Notes under the pieces: generated by a model
What the model saw: only the letters and a program-made list of their open reading frames with translations
The model's database searches: none
Told to the model about the DNA's origin: nothing
Assembly: GCA_963698625.1 (NCBI GenBank)
Contig: CAVORK010000003.1
Span: 411,317-475,316, forward strand
Direction: 5' to 3'
DNA: 64,000 nt
Source of the DNA: an uncultured Solirubrobacterales bacterium
GTDB lineage: Bacteria; Actinomycetota; Thermoleophilia; Solirubrobacterales; 70-9
Shown: positions 20,462 through 48,101 of the stretch, piece after piece
How the letters are laid out: every line of letters starts with the position of its first letter
Position numbering within the stretch: position 1 is the first letter of the stretch
Translations under genes and position numbers: made by a program

Positions 20462-20709
20462 CAGGAAATAACGATTCACTAAAGGTGGAGATGGGCAGCG
20501 ATTCGGCTCGGGTTGGCGGTGACGCCACAGACGAATCGCCATAGTGGCCCTGAGAACGGGTCGAGCCCAAGACCGTGTCTCCGAGTCTGTTGCCGGCTTT
20601 CCATGTTCATTTCATCGGCAACCGAACACTGGCAAGGATTTACTGAAACAAGCGAGAAAGCAATGAGTCAGGCACAGACTGCCATCGACTCGTGGGGGAT
20701 ACTGAAATT

Positions 20710-23700
20710 TTGAAATCTGGGAATCGTCTTGTCGTTCGTTTCACTGCGTTCATAGCCGTACTGGTCGCTGTGGCTGCCTTTGCGTTCGGTACCCAGTCGG
20801 CCACGGCCGACACGCCGGTCAGCTACGCCTCGGGATCCCTGATCATCCCGATGGACACCGATACGACGCTCAACCACACCGCTTACAACCAGAACCTGGG
20901 CATGTGGAAGGCGTTCGGACTGGTCAACCGGCTTCTTTCCAACGGCGTTCCGGTCAGATGGACCATCGATACGACCAAGACCACGACCACGACCGTGGAT
21001 TTCACGGCCAGCAGCGTCAAGGACCTGCGTACCAATACAGCGCTGGGCGGCTGGTCCTATAGAGGCGGACCGTTCGTCATCGACGCGGCCCACGCGACCG
21101 CGGCCAAGGCCCTCATAACAGCCTGGTGGGCCCAGAATTCAAACCTGCCCAACGTCCACGAGGCAAACAGCGCCTTCACCGCGGATTCTCCGGTCATTTT
21201 GCGCTCTCCGCCTCGCATTGCACAGGATGAAGCGAACGCCGGCATTACGATCGACTACTACAACGCTGCCGGGATCCCGGACTCCAACGGCAATGTCTGG
21301 ACAACCGACTCTCCCGGCGTGCTCGACGAAGCCGAGATCGCCAACGGAGACCTCTTCACCCAGGGTGCCTGCCTCGAGAAGCGCTTCGACACCTACGTAA
21401 CCCCGCACAACGGCGGATTCGGCTACTCGCTGACCGATACTGCCAACCTCGGCACCAGGGCTTACGCGCAGCTGGATACCTTCGTACATCAGGGCGGCGG
21501 CTGGACGGCTCTGTGCGCATCCATCGAAAACAACGAGAACGCTATCGCCGACCTCACTCTCAACGGCAACGCTGCCGTCAAGGCGCTTTTCAAGACATCG
21601 CTGCCCGGTGGCAAGCCCGGCGGCATGCTCACCCAGACCGGCTTCCCTGACATCAGCAACGGCGATGGCACGTGGGAGGTCAATCCTGCCAATGCCGACC
21701 TGCCTACCGCGCAGTTGGTCCCGACCACCGCGCCCAACGATCTGCCTGGCGGTTCGGTCCAGACCTGGCCTTCGCCCGGAAATCCGGACGCCCCGACCTA
21801 CTGGCCTGATACGGAAAGGGTCGCCTGGTTTGACGACGCCGGGGTCGAGAGCGATCACATCATCGCCGGCTCGTATCACGATGCAACCGGCCAGGGCAAG
21901 CTCACTTTCCTCGGCGGCCACCAGTACGACACGGACGTCCCGTATCTGGACAACGGAGAGGCTCCCTACCTGCGAGCTTTCTACAACTCGCTGTTCTTCA
22001 ACGGCACTGCGAAGCCGAAACTCGAGTTCTCCGCACCCACGACCTATCCGCAGAACGGCACCGGCAACATCCAGGCCAGCCTCAAGAACGTCGGTGGCAG
22101 CGTTGCCAACAACGTCAACAACACTACCGTCGTGCTGGAGCCCGGATTCACCTACGTAGGCACCACAAGCGGGCCGGCGCCCAGTGTCAGCGGTCAGACA
22201 CTGACCTGGTCCAGCCTTCCGGACATCCCCAGTGACGGCGAAGCAGTAACCGTCGAGCTCAGCGTCGGCCCCTCGATTTCTTCGACCACCGGCCAGAAGA
22301 AGATCGCCACGGTCAAGTCCGAGTACGGCGACCTCTTCGGCGAAGGCTTCACGGGCGTCTTCTGCCGTGAACTCACGGTCACGCCCACGCCGGTACCGAC
22401 CGTCACCAAGACGCCGCCCACCCAGGGTCCGGTTTCGCCGGGAACCCCGGTGACATGGACGATCAGCTACGGAAACACGGGTGCCGCGGCGCTGCTCAAC
22501 TCCGTGGTCGAAGACACCCTGCCCCCGGGATTCACTTACGTCTCCAGCTCCTCGTCGCCATCTCTCGGCGCTCCGACTGTGATTCCGGGCAGCCAGGTCA
22601 AGGTTCGCTGGAACAAAGGCACGATCAACGCAAATACGCCGAATTCCGGCACGGTGACGATCACCGCCAGGGCGGGCGCAGTGACCAACGGCAGCGGTGA
22701 CCCGCTTGCAGCAGACCTTCACCAATACCGGCGAGCTCCGCGGAATCGGTGCCGGAGATTTCACCTACTCGGATGAAGACACAGCGACCGTCGTCGTCGA
22801 GCAGGGAGCGCTCTCGCTCGGCAAGACGGCGAACAAGGCCTTCGTCACCCCGCCGGGTGACATCACCTACACACTGAGCCCGGACTTCAACTCGTCTGTA
22901 CAGCTCGACAACGTGCGTGTATTCGACCCGATTCCGGCCGGCGTGACTTCACCTCCGACCTCGATCGGCCAGGGCGGGACCTTCGGTCCTTACGTGCCGC
23001 TGCCAGCGGTTCCCGGAAACGACGCCGGACCACCGGTCCTTGATACGGCGATGAGCGTCAGCACCAATTTCCGCAACCAGGGCCAGTCGGTCACCGTCAC
23101 CCTGAACGTCAAGAGCAGTGTCGCGGTCCCGAACGTCACACCCAACATCACCGCCACCGGTGGCAATGAAGGTTGCGGTGCGCCGACGCCCGCCACCGCG
23201 AATGTCCCGGCGGGCGGCGTGGGAGTCAACTTCGTCTGGACCTGTACACCCGTCGACAACGGCGAATACACGTTCATCGGCGGAGCCGACGACGGCGTCG
23301 CCACGACCTGGCCTGCTGCGAGATCTTCGAGTGTTCTGGTGGTGCCGACCGGCGGCCCCGACGGAGTCCGCTGGAGCCTCGGCAGTACGACTGCGGAGAT
23401 CCCCGGCGAGATCATCAATTCCGGCTCCACCGAAGGCGTCTTCTCCTTCATCGGCGACGGAACCCAGACCTTCCGCAAGTTCGCTATCGGTACCAACAGC
23501 TGGGTCAACCGCACGAACGTGCCGTTGGCGGTCGATGCGGGCGGTGCGCTGGCCAGCGATGGAGTCGACACGGTCTACGGTATTCCAGGCGACAAAACGC
23601 AGAACTTCTACGCGTACAACGCGATCACCAACACCTGGACCGCCAGGGCGAATACCGGCGTGGACATGGACAATGGTGCCGCGCTCGTATACCTCAACGG

Positions 23701-26700
23701 ATTCGTCTATGCCACCGTTGGCAACAGCGACGAATTCCGGCGCTACAACGTCGGTACAAACAGCTGGGCGGCGCTGGCCGTAACGCCGGAGAACATCAAG
23801 GCCGGCGGAGCGCTCACGACCGACGGAACCTATGTCTACGCGCTGCGAGGAGACGGCAAGCCGGACATGTATCGGTACGACCCGGGAACGGACGCCTGGA
23901 CGACGATGGCGCCGCTGCCGCAGAATGTCAAGGACGGCGGAGCGATCACCCGGATCGGCGGCAACCTGTACGCGTGGACCGGTAACGGCAAGCAGTTCTT
24001 CTACCGCTACAGCATCTCCGGCAACAGCTGGACTGCTCTGGCCTCCACTCCGGCCCAGGTCAAGGGCGGCGGCGCGCTGACGACCGACGGCACGAACATC
24101 TACGGACTCCAGGGCAACGGACAGACGGTTTTCTGGAAATACACGGTCGCCACTGATACCTGGAGCACCCTGCCGGCGACCTCCGCCCAGGTGAAGGAAG
24201 GCGGTGCGCTCACCCACCTGCCCGACGCGGCCGTGACCGGTCAGTTCACCGACCTCAAGGTGAACAAGTCGATGGTCTCGAGCGGTGGACCGCTCTCTGT
24301 GGTGATCGAATTCAACGCCGATCCCGGCGTCAATAACGTCGTTCCCGGCGCCCTGACCACGACGGCAACCGGCGGCGCTTCCTGCTCGAGTCTGGTCGGT
24401 CCGACGCTGCTCTCGGCAAACGACGACATCACCGGCCCCGGCGATCCGGTCCGGTACGGCTGGACGTGCACGGTGGCCGCCGGTACCAACCCCGGCAGCC
24501 TCAAGTTCAGTGCCAACGGCAGCGGTGACGGGCCGACGCCCTTCCCGACTTCGACCTCCAACAGCTCGATCATCACCCCGCTGCTGACCTTCACCGTCGG
24601 CGTACCGAACGGTGCGCCGGACCCGGTTGACAATACGGCCGTGATCGGGGCAGTCGGGGTATCGGCTGCGTCGCCGACAGTCAGCGTCAACACCGGAAAC
24701 CCGGTCCTGTCGGTTACCAAGTCCAACAACCCCGGCCCACTCGCCATCCTGCGCCCGGGCGACGGCATCCAGTACACGATGGTCGTCGAGAACACCGGCA
24801 CAACGCCGGCCACCAACGCGACACTCACCGACCTCGTTCCCGCCCAGGTCAACTACGTCAACTGCACGGGAGGCACCTCCTGCAGCGAATCTGCCGGCAC
24901 GGTCACCTGGAACCTCGGAACGATCAATCCCGGCGGGTCCCAGACCGTCACCTTCACCGTGATCGCCAAGAGCGGTCTGGCCGTATCCGATACCGATTAC
25001 ACGATTTCCAACAAGGCCGTTATCGATTCCGATCAGACTTCTCCGGTCGACAGCAATACGGTGACCAACAAACTGCGTGTCCTGCCTACGGTGACTAAGG
25101 GAGTCTCCGATGTGGACGCCGTGGTCGGCCAGGTTCTGACCTACACGGTCAACGTCAACAACCCCGGCGCGGCATTCACCGCCACCGTGACCGATGCCAT
25201 CCCGGCGGGCGCCAGCTTCAACGGCACTGGCACGTGTTCCCCGGCCTGCACGTTCGGTTCAGGCACCGTCACCTGGGCCGCCCAGAACATTCCGGCCGGA
25301 GGACCGACCTCCTTCTCCTTCGACGTCACCGTGACCGGTGCTCCGGGGACCTCGGTCTTCAACGAAGCCGTACTCGACCCCTCGACGCCGAACCTCACCC
25401 CGATCACCAGCAACGAGACCGAGACCACGATCCTCGACCCGAACCTGGCGATCAACAAGTCCCATACCGGCAACTTCACCCAGGGCCAGACCGGTGCTAC
25501 CTACAACATCGAGGTCAGCAACAACGGCCCCGACCAGACCGAAGGACTTGTAACCGTCACCGACACCCTGCCGGCCGGCCTGACCGCCACCGCGATCAAC
25601 GGCACCGGCTGGACCTGCGTGCTCGGAACCCTGACCTGCACCCGCAGCGACCAGCTGAGCTCCGGCGACAGCTACCCGCCGATCACCCTGACAGTGGATG
25701 TCGCGGCCAACGCGCCGGCATCGGTGATCAACTCGGCCGCGGCAAGCGGCGGCGGCGATCCCACCCCGGTAACCGACAACGACCCCACCACCATCGACGG
25801 AGTCAACCTGGCGATCAACAAGTCCCACACCGGCGACTTCCGCCAGGGCCAGACCGGAGCCACCTACACGATCGAAGTCAGCAATAGCGGCCCGAGCGCG
25901 ACTTCGGGCACCGTCACCGTCACTGACGCCCTGCCGGCAGGCCTGACCGCCACGGCGATTGCCGGAACCGGCTGGACCTGCACCCTCGGCACCCTGACCT
26001 GTACGCGCAGCGATTCGCTGGCCAACGGTGCCAGCTACCCCGACATCACGCTGACGGTAAACGTGGCCAACAACGCCGGTACTCCGTTGACCAACTCGGC
26101 CACGGCCAGTGGCGGTGGAGATCCGACCCCGGTCACCGATGACGACCCGACCACTGTGCTCTCGACCAACCTGGCGATCAACAAGTCCCACACCGGCGAC
26201 TTCCGCCAGGGCCAGACCGGCGCCACCTACACGCTGGCCGTGACCAACAACGGCCCCGACGCCTCGACCGGACTGGTCACAGTCACCGACACCCTGCCGG
26301 CCGGTCTCACCGCCACCGCCATTTCCGGCACGGGCTGGACCTGTGTGCTCGGGACGCTGACCTGCACCCGCTCCGACGTCCTGGCCAACGGTGCCAGCTA
26401 CCCGGACATCACCCTGACCGTTGACGTCGCCAACAACGCCGGTACTCCGTTGACCAACTCGGCCACGGCCAGTGGCGGTGGAGATCCGACCCCGGTCACC
26501 GATGACGATCCGACCACTGTGCTCTCGACCAACCTGGCCATCAACAAGTCCCACACCGGCGACTTCCGCCAGGGCCAGACCGGTGCCCAGTACACGCTGG
26601 CCGTGACCAACAACGGCCCCGACGCCTCAACCGGCACGGTCACCGTCACCGACGCACTGCCAGTGGGTCTCACCGCCACCGCAATCAGCGGAACAGGCTG

Positions 26701-29700
26701 GACCTGTGTTCTCGGAACTCTCACCTGTACCCGTTCGGACTCCCTGGCCAACGGCGCCAGCTACCCCGATATCACGCTGACCGTTGACGTGGCAAACAAC
26801 GCCCCGGCCAGCGTCACCAACTCCGGCACCGTCTCCGGCGGTGGAGACCCGACGCCGAGCACCGCCAACGACCCGACGACCGTTCTGTCGACCAACCTGG
26901 TCATCAACAAGTCCCACACCGGAGACTTCCTCCAGGGCCAGACCGGCGCGCAGTACACGATCTCGGTCACCAACAACGGCCCCGACGCCTCAACCGGACT
27001 GGTCACGGTCACCGACGCCCTGCCGACCGGCCTCACCGCCACCGGCATCTCCGGTTCCGGCTGGAACTGTGTTCTCGGCACCCTGACTTGTACGCGCAGC
27101 GATTCGCTGGCCAACGGCGCCAGCTACCCCGACATCACGCTGACCGTCGACGTGGCTAACAACGCACCGGCCAGCGTCACCAACTCCGGCACCGTCTCCG
27201 GCGGCGGCGACCCGACACCGAGCACGGACGACGATCCGACCACCATCAAGAGCATCAACCTGGCGATTGCCAAGAGCCACACCGGCAACTTCCGTCAGGG
27301 CCAGACCGGTGCCACCTACATGATCGCCGTGACCAACAACGGCCCCGACGCAACCACCGGTCAGGTCACAGTCACCGACGCCCTGCCGGCCGGCCTCACC
27401 GCCACGGCAATCAGCGGCACCGGCTGGACCTGCAGCCTCGGAACCCTGACCTGTACGCGCAGCGATTCGCTGGCCAACGGCGCCAGCTACCCCGACATCA
27501 ACCTGACCGTCGACGTGGCGAACAACGCCCCGGCCAGCGTCACCAACTCGGCGACCGTCTCCGGCGGCGGCGACCCGACGCCCAGCACGGACGACGATCC
27601 GACCACCGTGCTCTCGACCAACCTGGCCATCAACAAGTCCCACACCGGCGACTTCCTCCAGGGCCAGACCGGCGCGCAGTACACGATCTCGGTCACCAAC
27701 AACGGTCCTGACGCCTCGACCGGCACGGTCACGGTCACCGACGCCCTGCCGACCGGCCTCACCGCCACGGCAATCAGCGGCACCGGCTGGACCTGTGTTC
27801 TCGGCACCCTGACTTGTACGCGCAGCGATTCGCTGGCCAACGGCGCCAGCTACCCCGACATCACCCTGACAGTTGACGTCGCCAACAATGCGCCGGCCAG
27901 CGTCACCAACTCCGGCACCGTCTCCGGCGGAGGAGACCCGACCCCGAGCACGGACGACGATCCGACCACCATCAAGAGCATCAACCTGGCGATTGCCAAG
28001 AGCCACACCGGCAACTTCCGACAGGGACAGACAGGCGCGCAGTACGCGGTGACAGTTACCAACAACGGCCCCGACGCAACTACCGGCCAGGTCTCTGTTA
28101 CCGACAGCCTGCCGACCGGCCTGACCGCCACCGCCATCGCCGGCACCGGCTGGAACTGTGTGCTCGGAACTCTCACATGTACCCGCTCGGATGTCCTGAC
28201 CAACGGTGCCAGCTACCCGAACATCGTCCTGACCGTCGACGTGGCCAACAACGCCCCGGCTTCGGTGACCAACTCCGCGACGGTCACCGGTGGCGGCGAC
28301 CCGACGCCGAGCACCGCCAACGACCCGACGACCGTTCTGTCGACCAACCTGGTCATCAACAAGTCCCACACCGGAGACTTCCTCCAGGGCCAGACCGGCG
28401 CGCAGTACACGATCTCGGTCACCAACAACGGCCCCGACGCCTCAACCGGACTGGTCACGGTCACCGACGCCCTGCCGACCGGCCTCACCGCCACCGGCAT
28501 CTCCGGTTCCGGCTGGAACTGTGTTCTCGGAACACTGACCTGTACCCGCTCGGACTCGCTGGCCAACGGCGCCAGCTACCCGGACATCATCCTGACGGTC
28601 AACGTTGCCAACAACGCCCCTGCCTCGGTTATCAACAGCTCGACCGTAAGCGGCGGCGGCGATCCGACGCCGGCCACCGACAACGACCCGACCACGATCC
28701 GCTCGATCAACCTGGCCATCGACAAGTCTCATACGGGCAACTTCACTCGCGGCCAGACTGGCGCCACCTACACGATTGCCAGTCACCAACAACGGCCCCG
28801 ATGCGACCTCCGGCCTCGTGACTGTGACTGACAACCTGCCCGCCGGCCTGACCGCCACCGCCATCGGCGGCAGCGGTTGGAGCTGCAGCCTCGGCACCCT
28901 GACCTGCACCCGTTCCGACTCCCTCGCCAACGGTGCCAGCTACCCGGACATCACCCTGACGGTCGACGTCGCGTCCAACGCGCCCTCCTCGGTGACCAAC
29001 TCCTCCACAGTCGCGGGCGGTGGAGACCCGACCCCGAGCACCGATGACGATCCGACCACGGTGATCGACCCGGCCACCCCGAACCTGATCATCAACAAGT
29101 CGCATACCGGCGACTTCACCCGCGGCCAGACCGGCGCCACCTACACGCTCGCCGTGACCAACCAGGGACCGGCAGCAACCACCGGCACCGTCACAGTCAC
29201 CGACGCCCTGCCGAGTGGCCTGACCGCCACCGCGATCGCCGGTACCGGCTGGAACTGCACGCTCGGAACGCTGACCTGCACCCGCTCCGACGTCCTGGCC
29301 AACGGCGCCAGCTACCCGGACATCACCTTGACGGTTGACGTAGCGGCGAACGCCCCCGCATCGGTGACCAACACCGGAACGGTCAGCGGCGGCGGCGACC
29401 CGACCCCGGCCAGCGACGACGATCCGACCAATATCCTCACGGCCAACCTGGCCATCGACAAGGCTCACACCGGCAACTTCCGCCAGGGCCAGACCGGCGC
29501 TCAGTACACGCTGGCAGTAACCAACAACGGACCGGCCGCAACCACCGGCACCGTCACGGTCACGGACACCCTGCCGGCTGGCCTCACCGCAACCGCGATC
29601 AACGGAACCGGCTGGAGCTGCGTCCTCGGCACCCTGACCTGCACCCGCTCGGACTCCCTGGCCAACGGCGCCAGCTACCCCGACATCACCCTGACCGTTG

Positions 29701-32700
29701 ACGTGGCAAACAACGCCCCGGCCAGCGTCACCAACTCGGGCACCGTCTCCGGCGGTGGCGACCCGACCCCGAGCACGGACGACGACCCGACCACCGTCCT
29801 GTCGACGAACCTTGCCATCGACAAGTCACACATCGGCGACTTCCGCCAGGGCCAGACCGGCGCGCAGTACACGATCTCGGTCACCAACACCGGCCCCGAT
29901 CCGACTGCTGGTCAGGTTTCGGTCACCGACGCCCTGCCGGCCGGCCTGACCGCAACCGCGATCAACGGCACCGGCTGGACCTGTGTTCTCGGCACCCTGA
30001 CCTGTACCCGCAGCGACGTACTGGCTGCGAACGCCAGCTACCCGAACATCACCCTGACCGTGGACGTGGCGAACAATGCCCCGGCAACTGTGATCCAGAG
30101 CGCGACTGTCTCCGGCGGCGGCGATCCGACGCCGAGCACGGACGACGACCCGACCACCGTCAAGAGCATCAACCTGGCGATCAACAAGTCCCATACCGGC
30201 GACTTCCGCCAGGGCCAGACCGGCGCCACCTACACGCTGGCGGTAACCAATAACGGCCCCGACGCATCGACCGGCACGGTCACAGTCACCGACGCACTGC
30301 CCGCAGGCCTGACCGCCACCGCGATCGCCGGAACCGGCTGGACCTGCACCCTCGGCACACTTACCTGCACCCGTTCGGACTCCCTGGCCAACGGCGCCAG
30401 CTACCCGGACATCAACCTGACCGTCGACGTTGCCAACAACGCGCCGGCTTCAGTGACAAACAGCGGGACCGTCTCAGGCGGCGGCGACCCGACTCCGAGT
30501 ACGGACGACGACCCGACCACTGTGCTCTCAACCAACCTGGCCATCAACAAGTCCCACACCGGCGACTTCCGCCAGGGCCAGACCGGTGCCCAGTACACGC
30601 TGGCCGTGACCAACAACGGCCCCGACGCCTCAACCGGCACGGTCACAGTCACCGACGCACTGCCAGTGGGTCTCACCGCCACCGCAATCAGCGGAACAGG
30701 CTGGACCTGTGTTCTCGGAACGCTGACTTGTACCCGTTCCGACGTCTTGGCCAACGGCGCCAGTTACCCCGACATCACCCTGACCGTCGACGTGGCCAAC
30801 AACGCCCCGGCCAGCGTCACCAACTCGGGCACCGTCTCCGGCGGTGGAGACCCGACCCCGAGCACGGACGACGACCCGACCACCGTGCTCTCGACCAACC
30901 TGGCGATCAGCAAGTCCCACACCGGCGACTTCATCCAGGGCCAGACCGGCGCCACCTACACGCTGGCCGTGACCAACAACGGCCCCGACGCCTCGACCGG
31001 CACCGTCACCGTCACCGACGCACTGCCGGCCGGCCTGACCGCAACCGCGATCAGCGGCAACCGGCTGGACCTGTGTGCTCGGCACCCTGACCTGTACCCG
31101 CTCGGACTCGCTGGCCAACGGCGCCAGCTACCCCGACATCACGCTGACCGTTGACGTCGCCAACAACGCACCGGCCAGCGTCACCAACTCCGGCACCGTC
31201 TCCGGCGGTGGAGACCCGACCCCGAGCACGGACGACGATCCGACCGCGATCAAGAGCATCAACCTGGCGATCGACAAGTCCCACACCGGCAACTTCACAC
31301 AGGGCCAGACCGGCGCGCAGTACACGATTTCGGTCAGCAACACCGGCCCCGATCCGACTGTTGGTCAGGTTTCGGTCACCGATGCCCTGCCAGTAGGCCT
31401 CACCGCCACAGCCATTAACGGCAGCGGCTGGAACTGCACGCTCGGAACCCTGACCTGTACCCGTAGCGACGTACTGGCTGCGAACGCCAGCTACCCGAAC
31501 ATCACGCTGACGGTCAATGTCGCCAACAACGCCGGCAGCCCGCTGGTCAACTCGGCGACCGTTTCCGGCGGCGGCGACCCGACCCCGTCCACCGACGACG
31601 ACCCGACTGTCGTGCGCTCGGTCAACCTCGCAATCGACAAGTCCCACACCGGAGACTTCACGCAGGGCCAGGTCGGGGCCGAGTACACGATTTCGGTCAC
31701 CAACAATGGCCCTGACAGCACGTCAGGCCAGGTCTCTGTCACGGATGCGCTGCCGAGCGGCCTGATCGCAACCGCGATCAACGGCACCGGCTGGAACTGT
31801 GTACTTGGAACGCTGACCTGCACGCGCTCCGACGTCCTGCCGGCCAGCACCAGCTACCCGGATATCACCCTGACTGTGGACGTTGCCAACAACGCGCCGG
31901 CTTCAGTGATCCAGAGCGCGACCGTTTCCGGCGGCGGAGACCCGACCCCGAGCACCGACGACGATCCGACCACGATCAAGAGCATCAACCTGGCGATCAA
32001 CAAGTCGCACACCGGCAACTTCACCCGCGGCCAGACCGGCGCCACCTACACGATTGCCGTCACCAACAACGGCCCCGACGCAACCACCGGTCAGGTCACC
32101 GTCACCGACACCCTGCCGGCAGGCCTGACCGCAACCGCTATCAACGGAACCGGCTGGAGCTGCACGCTCGGAACGCTGACCTGCACCCGCTCGGACTCCC
32201 TGGCCAACGGTGCCAGCTACCCCGACATCACTCTGACCGTCGACGTCGCAGCCAACGCGCCTTCGAGTGTCATCAACTCCGCGACCGCCTCGGGCGGCGG
32301 CGATCCGACCCCGGTCACCGACAACGACCCGACCACGGTGATCGACCCGGCCACGCCGAACCTGATCATCAACAAGTCGCATACCGGCGACTTCACCCGC
32401 GGCCAGACCGGCGCCACGTACACGCTCGCCGTGACCAACAACGGCCCGCCCGCCACCAGCGGCACCGTGACCGTCACCGACACCCTGCCGAGCGGTCTGA
32501 CCGCCACCGCGATTGCCGGAACCGGCTGGAACTGCACGCTCGGAACGCTGACCTGCACCCGCAGCGACTCGCTCGCCGCCGGCAACAGCTACCCGGACAT
32601 CACCTTGACGGTTGACGTAGCGGCGAACGCCCCCGCATCGGTGACGAACACCGGAACGGTCAGCGGCGGCGGCGATCCGACCCCGGACAGCGATGATGAC

Positions 32701-35700
32701 CAGACCAACATTCTCACGGCCAACCTGGCCATCGACAAGGCTCACACCGGCAACTTCCGCCAGGGCCAGACCGGCGCTCAGTACACGCTGGCAGTAACCA
32801 ACAACGGGCCGGCCGCAACCACCGGCACCGTCACGGTCACGGACACCCTGCCGGCTGGCCTGACCGCAACCGCGATCAACGGCACCGGCTGGAACTGCGT
32901 GCTCGGCACCCTGACCTGCACCCGCTCGGACTCCCTGGCGAACGGTGCCAGCTACCCGAACATCGTTCTGACGGTCGACGTCGCCAACAACGCCCCGGCC
33001 AGCGTCACCAACTCCGCCACCGCTTCGGGCGGCGGCGATCCCACTCCGACCACCGATAACGATCCGACCATCATCCTGTCGACCAACCTGGCCATCGACA
33101 AGGCTCACACCGGCGACTTCATCCAGGGTCAGACCGGCGCGCAGTACACGATCTCGGTCACCAACAACGGCCCCGATCCGACCGTCGGACAGGTCTCGGT
33201 CACCGACAACCTGCCGACCGGCCTGACCGCCACCGCGATCAGCGGCACCGGCTGGACCTGTGTTCTCGGAACCCTGACCTGCACGCGCTCCGATGTGCTC
33301 GCCGCCAACGCCAGCTACCCGGACATCACCCTGACTGTGGATGTCGCCAACGACGCGCCGGCAACTGTGATCCAGAGCGCGACCGTCTCCGGCGGTGGCG
33401 ACCCGACCCCGAGCACCGACGACGACCCGACCACGGTCAAGAGCATCAACCTGGCCATCGACAAGTCGCACACCGGCGACTTCCGTCAGGGCCAGACGGG
33501 TGCCCAGTACACGATCTCCGTGACGAACAATGGTCCCGACGCCTCGACCGGCCTCGTGGCGGTCACGGATGCCCTGCCGCCCGGCCTGACCGCCACCGCG
33601 ATCACCGGAACCGGCTGGACCTGCACGCTCGGAACCCTGACCTGCACCCGCTCGGACTCGCTGGCCAACGGCGCCAGCTACCCGAACATCACCCTGACTG
33701 TGAACGTCGCCAACAACGCTCCGGCTTCGGTCATCAACTCCTCCACCGTCAGCGGCGGAGGAGACCCGACTCCGAGTACGGACAACGATCCGACCGTGGT
33801 CCGCTCGATCAACCTCGCGATCAACAAGAGCCATACCGGCAACTTCACCCAGGGCCAGACCGGCGCGCAGTACACGCTCTCGGTCACCAACAACGGCCCC
33901 GATTCCTCGACCGGACTGGTCACAGTCACCGACACCCTGCCGGCCGGCCTCACCGCAACCGCGATCAACGGAACCGGCTGGAGCTGCGTGCTCGCCACCC
34001 TGACCTGCACCCGCTCCGACGTCCTGGCCAACGGCGCCAGCTACCCCGACATCACCCTGACAGTCGACGTCGCCAACAACGCCCCGGCCAGCGTCACCAA
34101 CTCCGGCACCGTCTCCGGCGGCGGCGATCCGACTCCGAGCACCGACGACGATCCGACCACCATTGACACCGACGTCAATCTCGCCATCAACAAGAGCCAT
34201 ACAGGTGACTTCACCCAGGGACAGACCGGTGCCTCGTACACCCTGGCCGTCACCAACAACGGTCCGAGTGCGACAACCGGACTGGTCACAGTCACCGACA
34301 CCCTGCCGGCCGGCCTCACCGCAACCGCGATCAACGGAACCGGTTGGAGCTGCGTGCTCGCCACCCTGACCTGCACCCGCTCCGACGTCCTGGCCAACGG
34401 CGCCAGTTACCCGACGATCACCCTGACCGTCGACGTTGCCAACAACGCCCCGGCGTCAGTCACCAACTCCGGCACAGTCACCGGCGGTGGAGACCCGACC
34501 CCGAGCACAGACGACGACCCGACCACGGTCAAGAGCATCAACCTCGCGATCGACAAGTCCCACACCGGCAACTTCACCCGCGGCCAGACCGGCGCCACCT
34601 ACACAATCGCCGTCACCAACAACGGTCCCGACGCAACCACCGGTCAGGTCACAGTCACCGACACCCTGCCGGCCGGCCTGACCGCAACCGCGATCACCGG
34701 AACCGGCTGGAACTGCACGCTCGGAACACTGACCTGCACCCGCTCGGACTCCCTGGCCAACGGCGCCAGCTACCCGGACATCACGATGACCGTCAACGTC
34801 GCAGCCAACGCTCCGTCGAGCGTCATCAACTCCGCGACGGTCTCCGGCGGCGGCGACCCGACCCCGGCCACCGATAACGATCCGACCACGGTGATCGACC
34901 CGGCCACCCCGAACCTGACGATCAACAAGTCCCACACCGGCAACTTCCGCCAGGGCCAGACCGGAGCCACCTACACGCTGGCCGTGACCAACAACGGCCC
35001 GCCCGCCACCACCGGCACCGTCACAGTCACCGACACCCTGCCGGCCGGCCTCACCGCAACCGCGATCAACGGAACCGGCTGGAGCTGCGTCCTCGGCACC
35101 CTGACCTGCACCCGCTCGGACTCCCTGGCCAACGGCGCCAGCTACCCGCCGATCACCCTGACCGTCGACGTTGCCAACAACGCCCCGGCGTCAGTCACCA
35201 ACTCCGGCACAGTCACCGGAGGCGGCGACCCGACCCCGGATACCTCGGACGACCCGACCACGGTGCTCTCAACCAGCCTGGCGATCAACAAGTCCCATAG
35301 CGGTGACTTCACCCAGGGCCAGACCGGCGCGCACCTACACGCTCTCGGTCACCAACAACGGTCCCGATTCCTCGACCGGACTGGTCACAGTCACCGACAC
35401 CCTGCCGGCAGGCCTCACCGCAACCGCGATCAACGGAACCGGCTGGAACTGCGTGCTCGCAACCCTGACCTGCACCCGCTCCGACGTCCTGGCCAACGGC
35501 GCCAGCTACCCCGACATCACCCTGACCGTCGACGTCGCCAACAACGCCCCGGCTTCAGTCACCAACTCCGGCACAGTCACCGGCGGCGGAGACCCGACCC
35601 CGAGCACCGACGACGACCCGACCACGGTCAAGAGCATCAACCTCGCGATCGACAAGTCCCACACCGGCAACTTCACCCGCGGCCAGACCGGCGCCACCTA

Positions 35701-38700
35701 CACAATCGCCGTCACCAACAACGGTCCCGACGCAACCACCGGTCAGGTCACAGTCACCGACACCCTGCCGGCCGGCCTGACCGCAACCGCGATCACCGGA
35801 ACCGGCTGGAGCTGCACGCTCGGAACACTCACCTGCACCCGCTCGGACTCCCTGGCCAACGGCGCCAGCTACCCGGACATCACGATGACCGTCAACGTCG
35901 CAGCCAACGCTCCGTCGAGCGTCATCAACTCCGCGACGGTCTCCGGCGGCGGCGACCCGACCCCGGCCACCGATAACGATCCGACCACGGTGATCGACCC
36001 GGCCACCCCGAACCTGACGATCAACAAGTCCCACACCGGCAACTTCCGCCAGGGCCAGACCGGCGCCACCTACACGCTGGCGGTGACCAACAACGGCCCG
36101 CCCGCCACCACCGGCACCGTCACCGTCACCGACACCCTGCCGGCAGGCCTCACCGCAACCGCGATCAACGGAACCGGCTGGAGCTGCGTCCTCGGCACCC
36201 TGACCTGCACCCGCTCGGACTCCCTGGCCAACGGCGCCAGCTACCCCGACATCACCCTGACCGTCGACGTCGCCAACAACGCACCGGCCAGCCGTCACCA
36301 ACTCCGGCACAGTTACCGGAGGCGGCGATCCGACCCCGGATACCTCCGACGACCCGACCACGGTGCTCTCGACCAACCTGGCGATCAACAAGTCCCATAC
36401 CGGTGACTTCACCCAGGGCCAGACCGGCGCGCACCTACACGCTCTCGGTCACCAACAACGGCCCCGATTCCTCGACCGGACTGGTCACAGTCACCGACAC
36501 CCTGCCGGCCGGCCTCACCGCCACCGCGATCAACGGAACCGGCTGGAACTGCGTGCTCGGCACACTGACCTGCACCCGCTCCGACTCCCTGGCCAACGGC
36601 GCCAGCTACCCGCGACGATCACCCTGACGGTCGACGTCGCCAACAACGCCCCGGCGTCAGTCACCAACTCCGGCACAGTCACCGGCGGCGGAGACCCGAC
36701 CCCGAGCACCGACGACGACCCGACCACGGTCAAGAGCATCAACCTCGCGATCAACAAGTCCCACACCGGTGACTTCACCCAGGGCCAGACCGGTGCGCAC
36801 GTACACGATCACGGTTTCGAACAACGGGCCGGATTCGACTATCGGCCTCGTCACCGTGACCGACACCCTGCCCGCCGGCCTGACCGCCACCGCGATTGGC
36901 GGAACCGGCTGGAGCTGCACGCTGGCCACACTCACCTGCACCCGCTCCAACTCGCTGGGGATCGGCAACAACTACCCGACGATCACCATGACGGTCGATG
37001 TGGCGGCCAACGCTCCGGCATCGATCATCAACACCGCCACAGTCTCCGGCGGCGGCGATCCGACCCCGGCCACCGATGACGATCCGACGACTGTCATTCC
37101 GACAGCACCCGATGTGAACCTCTCGATCGAGAAGTCACACACCGGCAACTTCACCCAGGGCCAGGTCGGAGCCACCTACACGATCCAGGTCACGAACGAC
37201 GGGCCCGACGCCACCACCGGTCTGGTGACGGTGACGGACAACCTGCCCGCCGGCCTGACCGCGACAGCGATCACCGGAACCGGCTGGAACTGCGTGCTCG
37301 CCACCCTGACCTGCACCCGCTCCAACACCCTCGGCGCGGGCAACGACTACCCGCCGATCACCCTGACTGTGAACGTCGCGGCGAACGCACCGGCATCGGT
37401 CATCCAGCGGGCGACCGTCAGCGGAGGCGGCGATCCGACCGACAGCGAAGATGAGGATCCGACCACGATCGTGCCCACCGGCAGCGACGTCAACCTTGCG
37501 ATCGACAAGTCCCACACCGGCAACTTCACCCAGGGCCAGACCGGAGCCACCTACACGATCCAGGTCAGCAACAACGGACCTGACTCGACGAGCCGGTCAG
37601 GTATCGGTCACCGACTCCCTGCCCGCAGGCCTGACCGCAACCGCCATCGGCGGCAAGGGCTGGAGCTGTGCTCTGGCCACCCTGACCTGCACCCGCTCGA
37701 ACACGCTGGGGACCGGCAACAACTACCCGCCGATCACCCTCACGGTTGACGTGGCAGCCGATGCCCCGGCATCGGTGGTCAACAGCGCCACCGTCTCCGG
37801 CGGTGGCGATCCGACCCCGGCTACCGATAACGATCCGACCACGATCGAGCCCGAAACGCTGGACGTCAACCTCTCGATCGAGAAGTCACACACCGGCGAC
37901 TTCGCCCAGGGCGAGATCGGCGCGACCTACTCGATCGTCGTTTCCAACGACGGCCCCGACGCAACGGCCGGTCTGGTCACCGTGACCGACACCCTGCCGA
38001 CCGGCTTGACCGCGACGGCGATCACCGGTAGCGGTTGGAACTGTGTGCTCGCCACCCTGACCTGCACCCGTTCGAACACGCTCTCGGTCGGCAACGACTA
38101 CCCGACGATCACGCTGACCGTCGATGTTGCCGCTGACGCACCGGCCTCTGTGGTCCAGCGCGCCACTGTCACCGGTGGCGGCGATCCCGACCCGACCCCG
38201 GTAGACGACCCGACCACGATCATCCCCTCGGACCTCACCGCGGACCTGGCGCTGACGAAGTCGGCACCTGCCACCGCGAAGGTCGGAGACCAGTTCGCCT
38301 ACACGATGGTCGTCGAGAACAAGGGTCCGGCCACGGCGACCGATGTCGAGATCGCCGACCCGCTTCCGACGGGGCTCACCTTCGTCTCTTCGGCTGACTG
38401 CAACGCGGTCATGGTCTGCAACCTCGGATCCATTGCGTCGGGCGACAGCAGGACGGTTGAAGTGACCGTCGAAGCCACCGATGTGACAGCCGGCACGACG
38501 GTCGTCAACACGGCGGTTGTCAACGCCGAGGAGTTCGATCCGAACCCCGACGACAACACTGCCACTGCTGAGACCGACATCGATCCGTTGTCCGATCTCA
38601 AGGTGACCAAGACCGGTCCCGCGTCCATCCAGGCCGGCAGCACAATCGGCTGGGAAATCCTGGTTGAAAACGCCGGTCCGAGCGCGGCCGAGGACGTCGA

Positions 38701-39724
38701 AATGGACGACCCGCTGCCCGCCGGACTGACCAACCCCACGGTCACGACCGAACAGGGAACCTGCGATCTCACCGTCAGCTGCTCACTCGGCACGATCCCG
38801 GCGAACGGTTCGGTGCTCGTCCTCATTGAAGCTGACATCCCGGCCGACGCAGTTGTCGGAAGCACGGTCAGCAACACGGTCACGGTGACTACCACCACTG
38901 ATGACAAGGATCCTGATGACAACACGTCTACTTCGACCACGACTGTGTCGCCGCCCACTCCGGGCAAGGCGGAGATCGCGATCACCAAGAAGCTCAGCAA
39001 CCAGAAGGTCACCCTGGGTGACATCGTCACCTTCAAGCTGACCGCCAGAAACAGCGGCGACGCTGCGGCGAAGAACGTCGTGATCAAGGACACCCTGAGC
39101 TCCAAGCTGAAGTACGTCAGCTCGAAGATCCCGGGCGGCAACTGCTCGGTCCAGGGCGCAACCGTCACCTGCAAGGTGTCGAAGCTGGCCGCCGGCAAGT
39201 CAGTGACCGCGACGATCAAAGCGCGGGCGATCGAGCCTGGGCAGGTGGCCAATACCGGCACAATCCAGGCCGACGACAGCAAGATCACGAAGCGCAAGTC
39301 GACTATCAAGTTCCCGGTCGACAAGGGCCAGACGAAGATCGGCATCGTCAAGACCGCCCTACGCAAGAAGACCAGGGATGGCAGCCGGGTCTCGTTCCGT
39401 ATCGAGATCACCAACCTGACCAACCAGGCAGCTACGGATGTCGAGATCTGCGACATCCTGCCGGGCAAGACCACGATCATCCGGTCCAAGGAAGGACGCA
39501 AGATGTCCGGAGGCAAGCTCTGCTGGACAATCGACTACCTGCCCGGTGGAGCCGTGCGGGGTGCATGGGTGACCCTCAGGGTTGACAACTTCACCTCACT
39601 GGATGAGCTGACCAACATCGGAACGGTCACTGCCGGCAATACGAAGGGCAAGAAGAAGTCGTCGGCAAAGGTGAAGCTGGTCCAGCGGACCAGCTCGGCA
39701 CGAGGCGGCGGTGTCACCGGTTAG
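20710..39724 (+). CDS. giant secreted surface protein B (~6330 aa). Order: signal peptide, head type 1, Kelch-like propeller, DUF11 domains, 35 x 121-aa repeats, 4 DUF11 domains (the last two lysine-rich). About 9 frame breaks in this sequence.
   Basis: The ORF opens at 20692. TTG 20710 gives MKSGNRLVVRFTAFIAVLVAVAAFAFGTQSATA, which is residue-for-residue parallel to the gene A N-terminus. ORF pieces 20692..22776, 22697..28831 (2044 aa), 28776..31154, 31075..35976, 35171..36406, 36363..37079, 36769..37749 and 37451..39724 are contiguous in protein sequence. Indels lie at about 22708, 28781, 31060, 35332, 36292, 36432, 36612 (+2), 36798 and 37592. DUF11-like signatures include ..LSVTKSNNPGPLAILRPGDGIQYTMVVENTGTTPATNATLTDLVPAQV... 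Confidence 0.8.
23435..24216 (+). other. Kelch-like six-bladed beta-propeller region within gene B (the equivalent region in gene A is ~14270-15060)
   Basis: Six ~45-aa repeats of the pattern GGAL.TDG..[IV]YAL.G.G...F..Y.....W. Examples: GGALTTDGTYVYALRGDGKPDMYRYDPGTDAWTTMAPLPQNVKD and GGALTTDGTNIYGLQGNGQTVFWKYTVATDTWSTLPATSAQVKE. Confidence 0.65.
25442..38242 (+). repeat. tandem array of 35 x ~363-bp coding repeats (121-125-aa CX6C unit) inside gene B, with higher-order duplications
   Basis: Unit starts are at 25442, 25805, 26168, 26531, 26894, 27257, 27620, 27983, 28346, 28709, 29082, 29445, 29808, 30171, 30534, 30897, 31261, 31624, 31987, 32359, 32722, 33085, 33448, 33811, 34177, 34540, 34912, 35275, 35639, 36011, 36375, 36741, 37117, 37492 and 37868. 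The array ends where ..DLALTKSAP.. begins at 38243. Confidence 0.9.
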
Positions 39725-40737: not shown

Positions 40738-43700
40738 ATGTCCAAAAGGAAAATCTCGGAGAACAAATTGAAGTCCGTCGCCCGTACTGCCATCCGTTTC
40801 GCGCCAGTCATTGCGGTTCTCGCCGCTGGCCTGGCGGCGGCTGCTCCCGCTCAGGCGGATCGTGCTTTCAGCTTGCGTTTCTCGGCTACTGAAGCCGGAA
40901 GCATCGGCGGCATCGCCAACAGCAACATGAGCTGCTCCACGGCCAGTGGCGATTTTGGAGCCAGCACCTGTGTGGATGCCCGCAACGCCGCCGTCACTGA
41001 CTCGGTCGACAGCTCTACCAACTGGCGGAACAACAACGCGCACACGATGACTTACGTCGATGTGGATGGCGTGGCTTCAACCTTCAACTCGTCGTCGGCG
41101 AATCAGTCGCTTCCTGCGGGCTCGACGATTCTCTATGCAGCCCTCTATTGGGGAGGGCACTATGCCGGTGCCACCAGCCCCGCCAATCAGAACATTCGCG
41201 ACCAGGTGAAGTTCAGGGTCCCCGGTGCTACGGGCTATCAGACAGTTACTGCTTCCACTGTTGATGACGGGGTCGGCGGCAATGCCGGGCGGTATCAGGC
41301 ATTCGCCAATGTGACCAGTCTGGTGCAAACGCTGCCGAATTCCGGCAACGGGACATACACCGTCGCCGACATTCAGTCTGCGGTCGGTAGCGACCGCTAC
41401 TCGGGATGGAGCCTGATCGTCTCCTACAAGAACCCCTCCGAGACCGTAAAGAACATGACGATCTATGACGGCCTGGTTTCGATTTCAGGAACGACGACGG
41501 CCGACATTCCGATTTCCGGCTTCCTCACTCCGCCAGCCGGTCCGGTCAACGCTGAGGTGGGCTTCGTGGCCTGGGAAGGTGACCTGGCCCTGATCGGTGA
41601 TCGGGCGCAGCTCAATGGTCAGTTCCTGTCTGACGCGCAGCATCCGTCGAACAACTTCTTCAATTCCAGAATCTCCCAGAACGGAGTCCTGTTCACCGAT
41701 CGAAATCCGTCGTACCCGAATTCACTCGGTATGGATGCGCTCCGTACTCCGGCCCCGGCGGGGTCGGTCACCAACTCGCAGACTTCGGCGACGGTGAGGG
41801 TCCGCAGTGACGGTGATTTCTACCTGCCAGGGGTCATCACTTTCCAGGTCGAGGTCTACTCACCGAAGGTTGACCAGCTGAAGTCGGTGGTCGATGACAA
41901 CGGCGGTGTTGTCGAGCAAGGCGACACCCTTACCTACAAGATCTCCGGCAAGAACAATGGCCTGGACGGCACGGCCAACTTCGTGCTGAGAGACCCGATC
42001 CCGCCGAACACGACTTACGTGCCCGGTTCGATCAACGTGGTCAAGAATACGAATGCTTCCACCGGAGTCCGGACTGACGCGTTCGCTGACGACATCGCCG
42101 AGTTCGACTCTCCCAACAACCGGATCATCGCTCGCCTCGGTGAAGGATCAAATGCCTCAACCGGAGGCAACGTCAAGCCAGGCAATGAATACGAGGTGAC
42201 CTTCAAGGTCAAGGTCAATGGACCGAGTCCGAACCCGGTGGCAAACGACACCGTCCTGACCAATACGGCGACCGCAAGCTTCCTGAGCCAGACGACGTCA
42301 AGCCCGCTGAACACAGCTTCGACGGTGGATGCGACCGTCAAGACTCCGGACTTGACGATCAACAAGTCGCATTCCGGAAACTTCCGCCAGGGCCAGACGG
42401 GCGCCCAGTACTCCCTCGCGGTGACCAACCAGGGCCCGGCCGGCACAAACGGCCAGGTCAGCGTCACCGACAACCTGCCGACCGGCCTGACCGCCACCGC
42501 CATTTCCGGCACCGGCTGGAACTGCGTGCTCGCATCTCTGACCTGCACCCGCTCGGACGTCCTGGCCGCCAACGCCAGCTACCCGCCGATCACGATGACC
42601 GTCAATGTGGCCAACAACGCGCCTGCTTCGGTGATCAACAGCGGAACGGTGAGCGGCGGTGGAGACCCCACCCCGAGCACGGCCAACGATCCGACCACCA
42701 TCCTCAGCACCAACCTGGTCATCGACAAGTCCCATACCGGTGACTTCCGCCAGGGACAGACGGGTGCCACCTACACGCTGGCCGTGACCAACAGCGGCCC
42801 GGACCCGACAACCGGAACCGTCACCGTCACCGACGCCCTGCCCGCAGGCCTCACAGCCACCGCGATCAGCGGAACCGGCTGGAACTGCGTGCTCGCAACT
42901 CTGACCTGCACCCGCTCGGACGTCCTGGCAGCCAACGCCAGCTACCCGCCGATCACGATGACCGTCAATGTGGCCAACAACGCGCCGGCATCGGTGATCA
43001 ACGGCGGAACGGTGAGCGGCGGCGGCGATCCGACCCCGAGCACCGACAACGATCCGACCACGATCAAGTCGATCAATCTCGTGATTGCCAAGAGCCATAC
43101 CGGCAACTTCCGCCAGAGCCAGACCGGCGCCCAGTACACGATCGCGGTCACCAATAGCGGACCCGATCCGACCCAGGGCCAGGTCTCAGTCACCGACACC
43201 CTGCCGACCGGCCTGACCGCCACCGCGATCAGCGGCACCGGCTGGAACTGCACGCTCGCAACCCTGACCTGCACCCGCTCGGACGTCCTGGCCGCCAACG
43301 CGAGTTACCCGAACATCACGATGACCGTGAACGTGGCCAACGACGCGCCGGCCAGCGTCGTCAACTCCGGCACCGTTACCGGCGGTGGAGACCCCACCCC
43401 GAGCACGGCCAACGATCCGACCACGATCCTCAGCACCAACCTGGTCATCGACAAGAGTCATAGCGGCAACTTCACCCAGGGCCAGACCGGGGCTCACGTA
43501 CACACTCTCGGTCACCAACAGCGGCCCCGACGCCTCGACCGGCCTCGTGACCGTGACGGACTCGCTGCCGGCCGGTCTGACCGCCACCGCAATAGGCGGC
43601 ACCGGCTGGAACTGCACCCTTGCCACGCTGACCTGCACCCGAAGCGACGCACTGGCCGCCAACGCCAGCTACCCGAACATCACCCTGACCGTCAACGTCG

Positions 43701-48063: not shown

Positions 48064-48083
48064 CCGATTCAGACTGTTGAATC
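48064..48083 (+). promoter_or_regulatory. conserved CCGATTCAG motif embedded in a perfect palindrome, 19 nt upstream of the gene D start
   Basis: CCGATTCAG at 48064-48072. GATTCA (48066-48071) and TGAATC (48078-48083) are exact inverted repeats separated by 6 nt, an operator-like architecture. Confidence 0.45.
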
Positions 48084-48101
48084 AACAGAAAGCTTTACAC
48101 C

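What the first reader, a model, noticed from the sequence alone, without database searches (positions are those of the whole stretch)
25442..38242. 35-unit, 12.8-kb tandem coding array with nested higher-order repeats inside a ~19-kb gene
Gene B contains 35 consecutive 363-bp units, extending to 372-376 bp where the linker is 3-4 aa longer. Larger periodicities are superimposed. First, a 233-bp perfect match at 26846-27078 = 28298-28530 (offset 1452 bp = 4 units). Second, 34177-35275 is almost identical to 35275-36375 (offset ~1099 bp = 3 units). Third, the units starting at 29082/29445/29808/30171 are collinear with those at 32359/32722/33085/33448 (offset 3277 bp = 9 units, including the distinctive ..IDPATPNLIINKSH.. 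and ..NILTANLAIDKAH.. linkers). This is the footprint of repeated unequal recombination. It predicts rapid copy-number (stalk-length) variation between strains or within a population.
Basis: seen in the sequence. Interest (0 to 1): 0.6.

Follow-up and report, generated by a model that had tools for sequence, protein, structure and literature searches.

The report
35-domain adhesin stalk with nested repeats
A giant surface-adhesin gene of an uncultured soil actinobacterium really holds 35 head-to-tail copies of a 121-residue stalk domain with a few larger duplicated blocks, but most copies are old and diverged, and the reading-frame breaks in it look like assembly errors, so this is a large, ordinary example of a known kind.

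Summary
There are 35 consecutive 363-bp units at 25442-38242, and all three larger periodicities are present and non-random.

Three corrections:
- The "almost identical" 3-unit block is 95% identical. It is a 1099-bp higher-order repeat in about 2.3 copies (34278-36800).
- The 9-unit-offset block covers three units, not four.
- The 233-bp perfect match is an isolated patch, so it looks like gene conversion rather than a block duplication.

Each unit is a CLIPPER (DUF11, PF01345) stalk domain of a fibrillar adhesin. As assembled, the "19-kb gene" is not one ORF: nine insertions (eight +1, one +2) break the frame. I read these as consensus errors. They are all insertions, there are no nonsense codons, and the repaired units are perfectly conserved. 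The whole 8-contig MAG shows a +1-biased excess of frame breaks, including in gyrB and murJ.

"Unequal recombination" is partly supported. "Rapid copy-number variation" is not supported by the sequence:
- Median synonymous divergence between units is 0.59.
- Units within the array are barely more alike than units of different genes.
- The longest exact repeat is 233 bp.

Only the 3-unit block near the 3' end looks recombination-prone.

The parts
20692..39724 (+). Gene B. Conceptually about 6,340 aa: signal peptide, about 690-aa head, Kelch-like propeller region, divergent DUF11 domains, the 35-unit array, four divergent DUF11 domains and a basic tail ending in VTG. As assembled it is cut into eight frame segments.
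   Evidence: ORF and frame maps. N- and C-terminal translations. Pfam DUF11 and Kelch hits. Homologues P0002-P0009 carry the head and propeller in one ORF.
25442..38242 (+). Array of 35 tandem CLIPPER/DUF11 units, 121-125 aa each.
   Evidence: TRF, blastn unit map, alignment. Repaired translations have no stop codons, and K6, D41, the GW-C-x6-C-TRS motif and GGGDP are conserved.
34278..36800 (+). Higher-order repeat, period 1099 bp (3 units), about 2.3 copies. Unit identities: 26/29 99%, 27/30 95-96%, 28/31 95-96%, 25/28 89-90%.
   Evidence: dS is 0.01, 0.14, 0.09 and 0.29 for these pairs.
29062..30190 (+). Three-unit block (units 11-13), older copy 1 of the pair at offset 3277 bp.
   Evidence: Sliding identity of 87-98% to 32339-33467. 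Unit identities 0.90, 0.91 and 0.88. dS 0.23-0.38.
32339..33467 (+). Three-unit block (units 20-22), partner of 29062-30190.
26846..27078 (+). Exact 233-bp tract spanning the junction of units 4 and 5, identical to 28298-28530. Candidate gene-conversion patch.
   Evidence: exact, not extendable. Flanks fall to 70-87% identity.
28298..28530 (+). Partner of the 233-bp tract, at the junction of units 8 and 9.
26525..26900 (+). Unit 4, 94% identical to unit 15 (30534-30896) at an offset of 11 units. Single-unit patch.
22708..22708 (+). Extra G in the head. It shifts frame 1 to frame 2. Removing it restores ...GDPLQQTFTN..., as in the homologues.
   Evidence: One search compared with P0002/P0003.
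28779..28779 (+). +1 insertion in unit 10 (alignment column 72, also hit in units A01 and C09).
31059..31059 (+). +1 insertion in unit 16: GGCAACC, where other units read GGCACC or GGAACC.
35332..35332 (+). +1 insertion in unit 28 (column 58: GCGCGCACCTAC).
36288..36288 (+). +1 insertion in unit 30 (column 286, also hit in A01 and A04).
36432..36432 (+). +1 insertion in unit 31, the same site and sequence as in unit 28.
36611..36612 (+). +2 insertion in unit 31.
36798..36798 (+). +1 insertion in unit 32 (column 58).
37592..37592 (+). +1 insertion in unit 34 (column 103, also hit in A01).

Best explanation
Region 25442-38242 is the stalk of one giant fibrillar adhesin, gene B (20692-39724, about 6,340 aa once nine inserted bases are discounted). 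The organism is an uncultured Thermoleophilia-type actinobacterium.

The stalk is 35 tandem CLIPPER (DUF11) beta-sandwich domains. By analogy with the solved CLIPPER domain, each is probably locked by a Lys-Asn isopeptide bond and a CX6C disulfide. Together they would hold the N-terminal head tens of nanometres from the wall (inferred).

The array arose by unit duplication long ago and has since diverged under purifying selection. A few later events are superimposed:
- an older 3-unit block duplication at an offset of 9 units;
- a younger tandem 3-unit duplication near the 3' end (1099-bp period, about 2.3 copies);
- short gene-conversion patches (the 233-bp exact tract; unit 4 with unit 15).

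The frame breaks are consensus errors of a noisy long-read metagenome assembly, not gene decay. The unit count of 35 is probably right, with least certainty in the 3-unit block. Only that block has enough DNA identity to gain or lose units easily.
For: Domain identity.
- Pfam DUF11 hits.
- AlphaFold model with pLDDT 95.6.
- Best full-length fold match is 9ifr, the CLIPPER domain, with TM 0.72/0.71.
- K6 and D41 are invariant and N97 is present in 30/35 units. This parallels K715/D748/N806 of the 121-residue CLIPPER construct (PMC12617251).

Gene unity. Homologues P0002-P0009 have the same head and propeller in one ORF. A signal peptide and a single stop at 39724 are seen.

Age and selection.
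- Median dS 0.59 and dN/dS 0.26.
- B-B identity 0.789, against A-B 0.775 and B-C 0.762.
- Units of a different lineage (L093) are 80-83% identical to window units, as close as window units are to each other.

Nested events.

Frame breaks as artefact.
- All 9 events in gene B are insertions. Across the three arrays there are 19 insertions against 3 deletions, and 13 of the 19 fall on 4 recurrent alignment columns.
- There are no nonsense codons, and the repaired units are fully conserved.
- 8 of 17 insertions look like two unit variants kept side by side, against 17% expected for random insertions.
- Selection stayed purifying after the duplication that carries the shared insertion: dN/dS is 0.32 for units 28/31 and 0.10 for units 27/30.
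- Genome-wide there are 172 candidate frame breaks, 128 of +1 type against 44.
- murJ is split at Pfam profile positions 231/238 of 451. gyrB is split between the GGLHGVG and EGDSAGG motifs.
- The genome is a MAG, 89.5% complete, in 8 contigs.
- The tail-sharing relative L093 has an intact 2,635-aa ORF.

Count robustness. The longest exact repeat is 233 bp and mean unit identity is 77-79%. The two higher-order copies differ at 51 of 1101 aligned positions.
Against: - No reads could be examined, so neither the insertions nor the unit count is directly verified.
- The same +1 insertion in units 28 and 31 could have been inherited through the duplication. That would make it a real mutation.
- Six of the nine events cluster in 35.3-37.6 kb. 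The assembly is therefore least trustworthy exactly where the youngest repeat lies.
- Another contig (C2) ends inside a similar array, so this assembly did fail on at least one such array.
- The 'two variants kept' test explains only about half of the insertions.
- The isopeptide bond, the rod shape and the adhesive function are inferred, not shown.
Confidence: 0.72

Rival explanations
1. Gene B, with genes A, C and D, is a real pseudogene: a decaying adhesin cluster whose frameshifts exist in the DNA.
For: - Nine frame breaks in B, and more in A, C and D.
- By the same detector, break density in the adhesin cluster is about 4 times the rest of the genome: 282 against 67 per Mb.
- Units 28 and 31 share one identical insertion.
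Against: - There are no deletions and no nonsense codons in B, whereas bacterial gene decay is usually deletion-biased (general knowledge).
- dN/dS is 0.26 overall, and 0.10-0.32 between the post-duplication copies.
- The insertions recur at four columns in three genes.
- Essential genes gyrB and murJ carry the same kind of +1 break.
- The genome-wide +1 bias is 128 against 44.
Confidence: 0.13
2. The array length or its higher-order blocks are assembly artefacts: units collapsed, expanded, or strain variants stitched in tandem.
For: - The assembly has many consensus errors.
- Errors cluster in the 1099-bp repeat.
- Contig C2 breaks inside a paralogous array.
- Tandem repeats are a known source of assembly error (PMC6868369, title and abstract seen).
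Against: - Units differ at more than 20% of bases and the longest exact repeat is 233 bp, so multi-kb reads place uniquely.
- The two copies of the 3-unit block differ at about 5% of positions, mostly synonymous. That is not what a spurious duplication of one template gives.
- All 35 repaired units are distinct and well formed.
Confidence: 0.1
3. One reading: the whole array is a fast 'Periscope'-type length-variable stalk, shaped by frequent unequal crossing-over and differing between strains.
For: - Protein identity of adjacent units averages 82.8%, above the 80% screen used for Periscope Proteins (PMC8201768).
- Nested blocks exist.
- Relatives have 4, 5 or 7 units.
Against: - DNA identity is only 77-79%, dS is 0.59, and within-array similarity shows almost no excess over between-gene similarity.
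- Per the Periscope paper, extreme variation goes with the highest repeat identity.
- No strain comparison was possible.
Confidence: 0.15

Closest known systems
CLIPPER (DUF11, PF01345) stalk domains of fibrillar adhesins; crystal structure 9IFR of Acinetobacter silvestris B9T28_05395 (Costa et al. 2025, PMC12617251)
   Same: - A 121-residue CnaA-like beta-sandwich, repeated in tandem between a signal peptide plus head and a C-terminal anchor region.
- Lys, Asp and Asn sit at matching positions.
- A disulfide accompanies the putative isopeptide bond, as reported for many actinobacterial members.
- The fold match has TM 0.72.
   Different: - Only 28% identity to 9IFR, and no sequence-level PDB hit.
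- The disulfide is a CX6C hairpin in the middle of the domain, not the C-terminal CTTC motif.
- 35 consecutive copies, whereas the best-scoring 150 proteins of a 1.84-billion-protein library have at most 27 matched stretches.
- Five units have Gln in place of the presumed bond-forming Asn.
Periscope Proteins (SasG/Aap, Rib, Sgo_0707 SHIRT, Esp, CdrA; Whelan et al. 2021, PMC8201768)
   Same: A long rod of tandem folded domains that would set how far a head projects. Repeat protein identity is about 81-83%. The array contains multi-unit duplications.
   Different: In Periscope Proteins, near-identical DNA repeats drive strain-to-strain number changes. Here the DNA has diverged to 77-79% (dS 0.59), and only a 2.5-kb sub-block is 95-99% alike. 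Variation among strains is untested.
Higher-order repeat structure produced by unequal crossing-over and gene conversion in tandem arrays (classical model; coding examples in surface-protein genes)
   Same: Multi-unit periodicities (3 units; a 9-unit offset) overlie the basic period. Short perfect tracts lie inside diverged units.
   Different: Only a minority of the array is involved. There is no array-wide homogenisation.
L093 (JGI contig Ga0209490_10003341): adhesin sharing the tail (70% identity) and the downstream L,D-transpeptidase (76% identity)
   Same: Same unit type (CX6C CLIPPER, 363 bp), same tail, same downstream gene with the same overlap.
   Different: An intact 2,635-aa ORF with an unrelated head. 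It has only 4 units, which are 87% alike.

Membership tests
CLIPPER / DUF11 (PF01345) | Match to the Pfam model above the gathering score | tested here: met
   The flanking divergent domains score 37-262 bits against a cut-off of 24.6. The unit profile finds 14,830 representative proteins.
CLIPPER / DUF11 (PF01345) | CnaA-like Ig beta-sandwich fold | tested here: met
   AF2 model of pLDDT 95.6 with nine strands. Foldseek gives 9ifr with TM 0.72/0.71 and E 1.6e-5.
CLIPPER / DUF11 (PF01345) | Intramolecular Lys-Asn isopeptide bond with a catalytic Asp | tested here: inconclusive
   K6 and D41 are present in 35/35 units, and N97 in 30/35 with Gln in 5. The positions parallel K715/D748/N806. Side-chain geometry was not measured and there is no experiment.
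Fibrillar adhesin | Signal peptide, distal non-repeat head, repetitive stalk, C-terminal anchoring region in one protein | tested here: inconclusive
   The signal-peptide-like N-terminus, head, stalk and basic tail are all seen. They form one protein only if the nine insertions are discounted. There is no LPXTG motif. The anchor mode (VTG end plus an adjacent L,D-transpeptidase) is unproven.
Periscope Proteins | [quoted passage not shown] | tested here: met
   Adjacent units average 82.8% protein identity, 21 of 34 pairs are at 80% or more, and all pairs average 80.8%. This is borderline.
Periscope Proteins | [quoted passage not shown] | tested here: not met
   Mean DNA identity is 77-79%, the longest exact tract is 233 bp, and median dS is 0.59. 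The feature is met only within 34278-36800.
Periscope Proteins | Repeat number differs between closely related strains | not testable with these tools
   No orthologue in 24 same-genus species genomes. The nearest head homologue is 58% identical.
Pseudogene | Relaxed selection and mixed lesions (deletions, nonsense codons) | tested here: not met
   Only insertions, no stop codons, and dN/dS of 0.26.
Pseudogene | Lesions present in the DNA of the organism | not testable with these tools
   Reads were unavailable. Indirect evidence points to assembly error.

The most novel reading that the evidence does not exclude
The recurrent +1 insertions may be real. Column 58 is hit in five units of three genes, and columns 72, 103 and 286 are hit two or three times each. 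They could arise when heteroduplex forms between two codon variants (GCG-CAG against GCC-ACC) during gene conversion between units, and the mismatches are repaired as a bulge. Recombination inside the arrays would then itself switch these giant adhesins off and on. That would be a recombination-driven form of phase variation.
Probability: 0.05. Interest if true: 0.6.

Novelty: new member of a known kind. Interest (0 to 1): 0.27.

Why it matters
This array has more consecutive CLIPPER domains (35, plus about 7 divergent ones in the same protein) than any of the 150 best-scoring proteins in a search of 1.84 billion representative proteins, which reach at most 27. The gene takes about 0.8% of a 2.4-Mb genome.

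It is also a clean case of protein-level repeat similarity (81-83%) maintained while the DNA has diverged. That is the opposite of the Periscope pattern and suggests a long but stable stalk.

Practically, it shows how such genes get shattered in long-read MAGs. Automated annotation will list seven or more fragments instead of one 6,340-residue protein.

Tried and rejected
No read support, spanning-read count or pile-up at the insertion sites could be obtained, and read laying was therefore unusable.
- Rfam found nothing in the window.
- Sequence search of the PDB with one unit and with a 25-unit profile found nothing meaningful. Only the fold search found the CLIPPER structure.
- Orthologue search for copy-number comparison failed. 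No head orthologue was found in 40 relatives or in genome contigs. The nearest protein is 58% identical.
- The metagenome scan with the tail gave one useful locus, L093. It has a different head, so it is not a strict orthologue.
- The built-in repeat finder output was dominated by the basic period and did not resolve the blocks. I used my own unit matrix and sliding identity instead.
- The idea that the frame breaks are caused only by read mis-mapping among repeats was weakened. The gyrB-gyrA region, which is not repetitive, is just as error-dense.
- Programmed frameshifting was considered and rejected. The sites have heterogeneous contexts, and the same type of break occurs in housekeeping genes.


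Full report
**What is there.** The window is C3:411317-475316 of a 2.44-Mb, 8-contig, 65% G+C genome. The tool rates this genome 89.5% complete, so it is a MAG. Its 2-oxoglutarate dehydrogenase is closest (69-70%) to Thermoleophilia/Solirubrobacterales MAGs.

The plus strand carries three arrays of a 363-bp coding unit:
- A, 16302-18846, 7 units;
- B, 25442-38242, 35 units;
- C, 42349-46350, 11 units.

**Observation check.** The three superimposed periodicities are also real.
- The 233-bp tract 26846-27078 = 28298-28530 is exact and cannot be extended.
- 34177-35274 and 35275-36374 are 95.0% identical.
- 29082-30533 and 32359-33810 are 87.7% identical without gaps, against a background of 77-79%.

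When unit order is permuted, the number of collinear high-identity pairs (6) is reached in 1 of 5000 trials, against a mean of 1.05.

Sliding identity refines the picture.
- The 1099-bp period is a tandem higher-order repeat of about 2.3 copies over 34278-36800.
- The 3277-bp offset block covers three units (29062-30190), not four.
- The 1452-bp offset is only the isolated 233-bp patch.
- A further single-unit patch links unit 4 to unit 15 (94%).

Linker types show a recurring module, IDPATP-(ILTA)-LST-KSI, at units 10-13, 19-22, 26-28 and 29-31.

**What the unit is.** The flanking divergent copies hit Pfam DUF11. An AlphaFold model built from 25 in-frame units has pLDDT 95.6. Its best full-length structural match is 9ifr, the recently solved CLIPPER domain, with TM 0.72/0.71. 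CLIPPER is the new name for DUF11. It is a 121-residue CnaA-like stalk domain of fibrillar adhesins with a Lys-Asn isopeptide bond (PMC12617251).

In the 35 units K6 and D41 are invariant. N97 is present in 30 units and replaced by Gln in 5. That these residues form the bond is an inference from position.

Gene B starts with a signal-peptide-like N-terminus at 20692 and ends at 39724 in ...GGGVTG. An overlapping L,D-transpeptidase gene follows. Homologues with the same head and Kelch-like region in one ORF (P0002-P0009) show that 20692-22776 and 22697 onward belong to one gene.

**The gene is not open as assembled.** Nucleotide alignment of the units shows eight insertion events in the array and no deletions. 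Seven are +1 and one is +2. A ninth insertion, a G at 22708, lies in the head. Removing it restores GDPLQQTFTN, as in the homologues.

Across arrays A, B and C there are 19 insertions against 3 deletions. Thirteen of the 19 fall on four alignment columns. After the extra bases are removed, all 53 units translate without a stop and keep every conserved residue.

Several insertions look like two unit variants kept side by side. For example, GGCAACC occurs where other units read GGCACC or GGAACC. Formally, 8 of 17 insertions allow two different one-base repairs that each match another unit, against 17% for random insertions.

**Are the frame breaks real?** I scanned the genome with a codon-position HMM and asked whether the upstream frame's stop codon lies near each frame change.
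- This gives 172 candidate breaks, 128 of +1 type against 44. Ordinary gene junctions show the opposite bias.
- Checked examples are genuine. murJ is split at Pfam profile positions 231/238 of 451.
- PhoX is split likewise.
- gyrB changes frame between its GGLHGVG and EGDSAGG motifs.

Essential genes broken in the same insertion-biased way mean that the assembly, not the organism, carries these errors. The adhesin cluster is about four-fold enriched by the same detector, but the non-repetitive gyrB-gyrA region is just as dense.

Selection also argues against decay. dN/dS is 0.26 across units. It is 0.32 and 0.10 between the copies of the young duplication that share an insertion. The tail-sharing relative L093 has an intact 2,635-aa ORF.

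I therefore read gene B as an intact gene of about 6,340 codons (probability about 0.8) and the breaks as consensus artefacts.

**Is the unit count trustworthy?**
- Units are only 77-79% alike, and the longest exact repeat in 13.6 kb is 233 bp. Reads of a few kb therefore place uniquely.
- The two copies of the 3-unit block differ at 51 of 1101 aligned positions.
- The weakest part is 35.3-37.6 kb, where six of the nine errors cluster.
- Another contig, C2, ends inside a paralogous array.

**How the array evolved.**
- Median dS between B units is 0.59 (mean pS 0.40). That equals the pS between units of different genes, 0.37-0.43.
- DNA identity within B (0.789) barely exceeds A-B (0.775) or B-C (0.762).
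- Units of another lineage (L093) are 80-83% identical to window units.

So most units are old, and there is little concerted evolution. The later events are few:
- the 9-unit-offset block (dS 0.23-0.38);
- the 3-unit tandem block (dS 0.01-0.29, uneven, suggesting later conversion);
- short exact patches.

Unequal crossing-over explains the tandem 3-unit block. The isolated patches are better explained by gene conversion.

The prediction of rapid copy-number change is thus supported only for 34.3-36.8 kb. Over long times the number does change. The tail-sharing L093 protein has 4 units. Three related proteins whose heads are 81-84% identical have 7, 5 and 7 units, alternating with a second domain.

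**Comparison with known systems.** The array passes the Periscope Protein screen on protein identity. That screen asks for repeats longer than 50 aa with at least 80% identity (PMC8201768). Adjacent units here average 82.8%. The array lacks the high DNA identity that the Periscope model relies on, and strain variation is untested.

In a profile search of 1.84 billion representative proteins, 14,830 carry the unit. The best 150 have at most 27 matched stretches. Thirty-five is therefore at the upper end, with the caveat that giant genes are often fragmented in such data.

**Verdict.** The array is real and large, and it has real nested repeats. It is a new, very long member of a known class. 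The frame breaks are most likely assembly errors, and the claim of rapid length variation is unproven and, for most of the array, unlikely.

Noticed in passing
window 16302-18846: Array A is a two-unit higher-order repeat. Odd units (1, 3, 5, 7) and even units (2, 4, 6) form two classes, 0.85-0.94 alike within a class, with alternating IDPA and IRSV linkers. It also carries 8 insertions and 3 deletions in 7 units.
   Followed up: partly
genome contig C7 ~540746; contig C3 255577-256748: Essential genes murJ and gyrB are each split by a +1 frame break. Genome-wide there are about 170 candidate breaks with a 3:1 bias to +1. C3:255-293 kb, which holds gyrB-gyrA, is as error-dense as the adhesin cluster.
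   Followed up: partly
genome contig C2 2-3210 (minus strand): A fifth giant-adhesin paralogue. Its head is 65-70% identical to gene B's head, and its DUF11 array runs off the contig end after about 1.3 units, so the assembly broke inside that array.
   Followed up: no
L093 3941-12572: A JGI metagenome contig has the same tail (70%) and the same overlapping L,D-transpeptidase gene (76%). The adhesin is intact (2,635 aa), has an unrelated head and has only four CX6C CLIPPER units. Tail plus transpeptidase thus travel together while heads and stalks are swapped.
   Followed up: partly
proteins P0006, P0007, P0008: Homologues with the same head use the same CX6C unit alternating with a TIGR02543-type domain (FPL..V.G.G.V....G...C). 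This gives a two-domain super-repeat present 7, 5 and 7 times.
   Followed up: partly
window units 13, 18, 22, 33, 35 (e.g. 30093-30098): Five of the 35 units have Gln instead of the Asn presumed to form the isopeptide bond (VIQSA / VIQRA). These units may lack the cross-link.
   Followed up: no
window 48081-53660: Gene D also changes frame three times, each time by +1 (frame 3 to 1 to 2 to 3), outside any 363-bp array.
   Followed up: no
window 37117-38242: The last four units (32-35) are the most divergent (65-80% to the rest). They have longer 8-residue linkers (PTAPDV, PTGSDV, PETLDV, PSDLTA) and TRSN instead of TRSD. They form a distinct tail-proximal sub-type.
   Followed up: no
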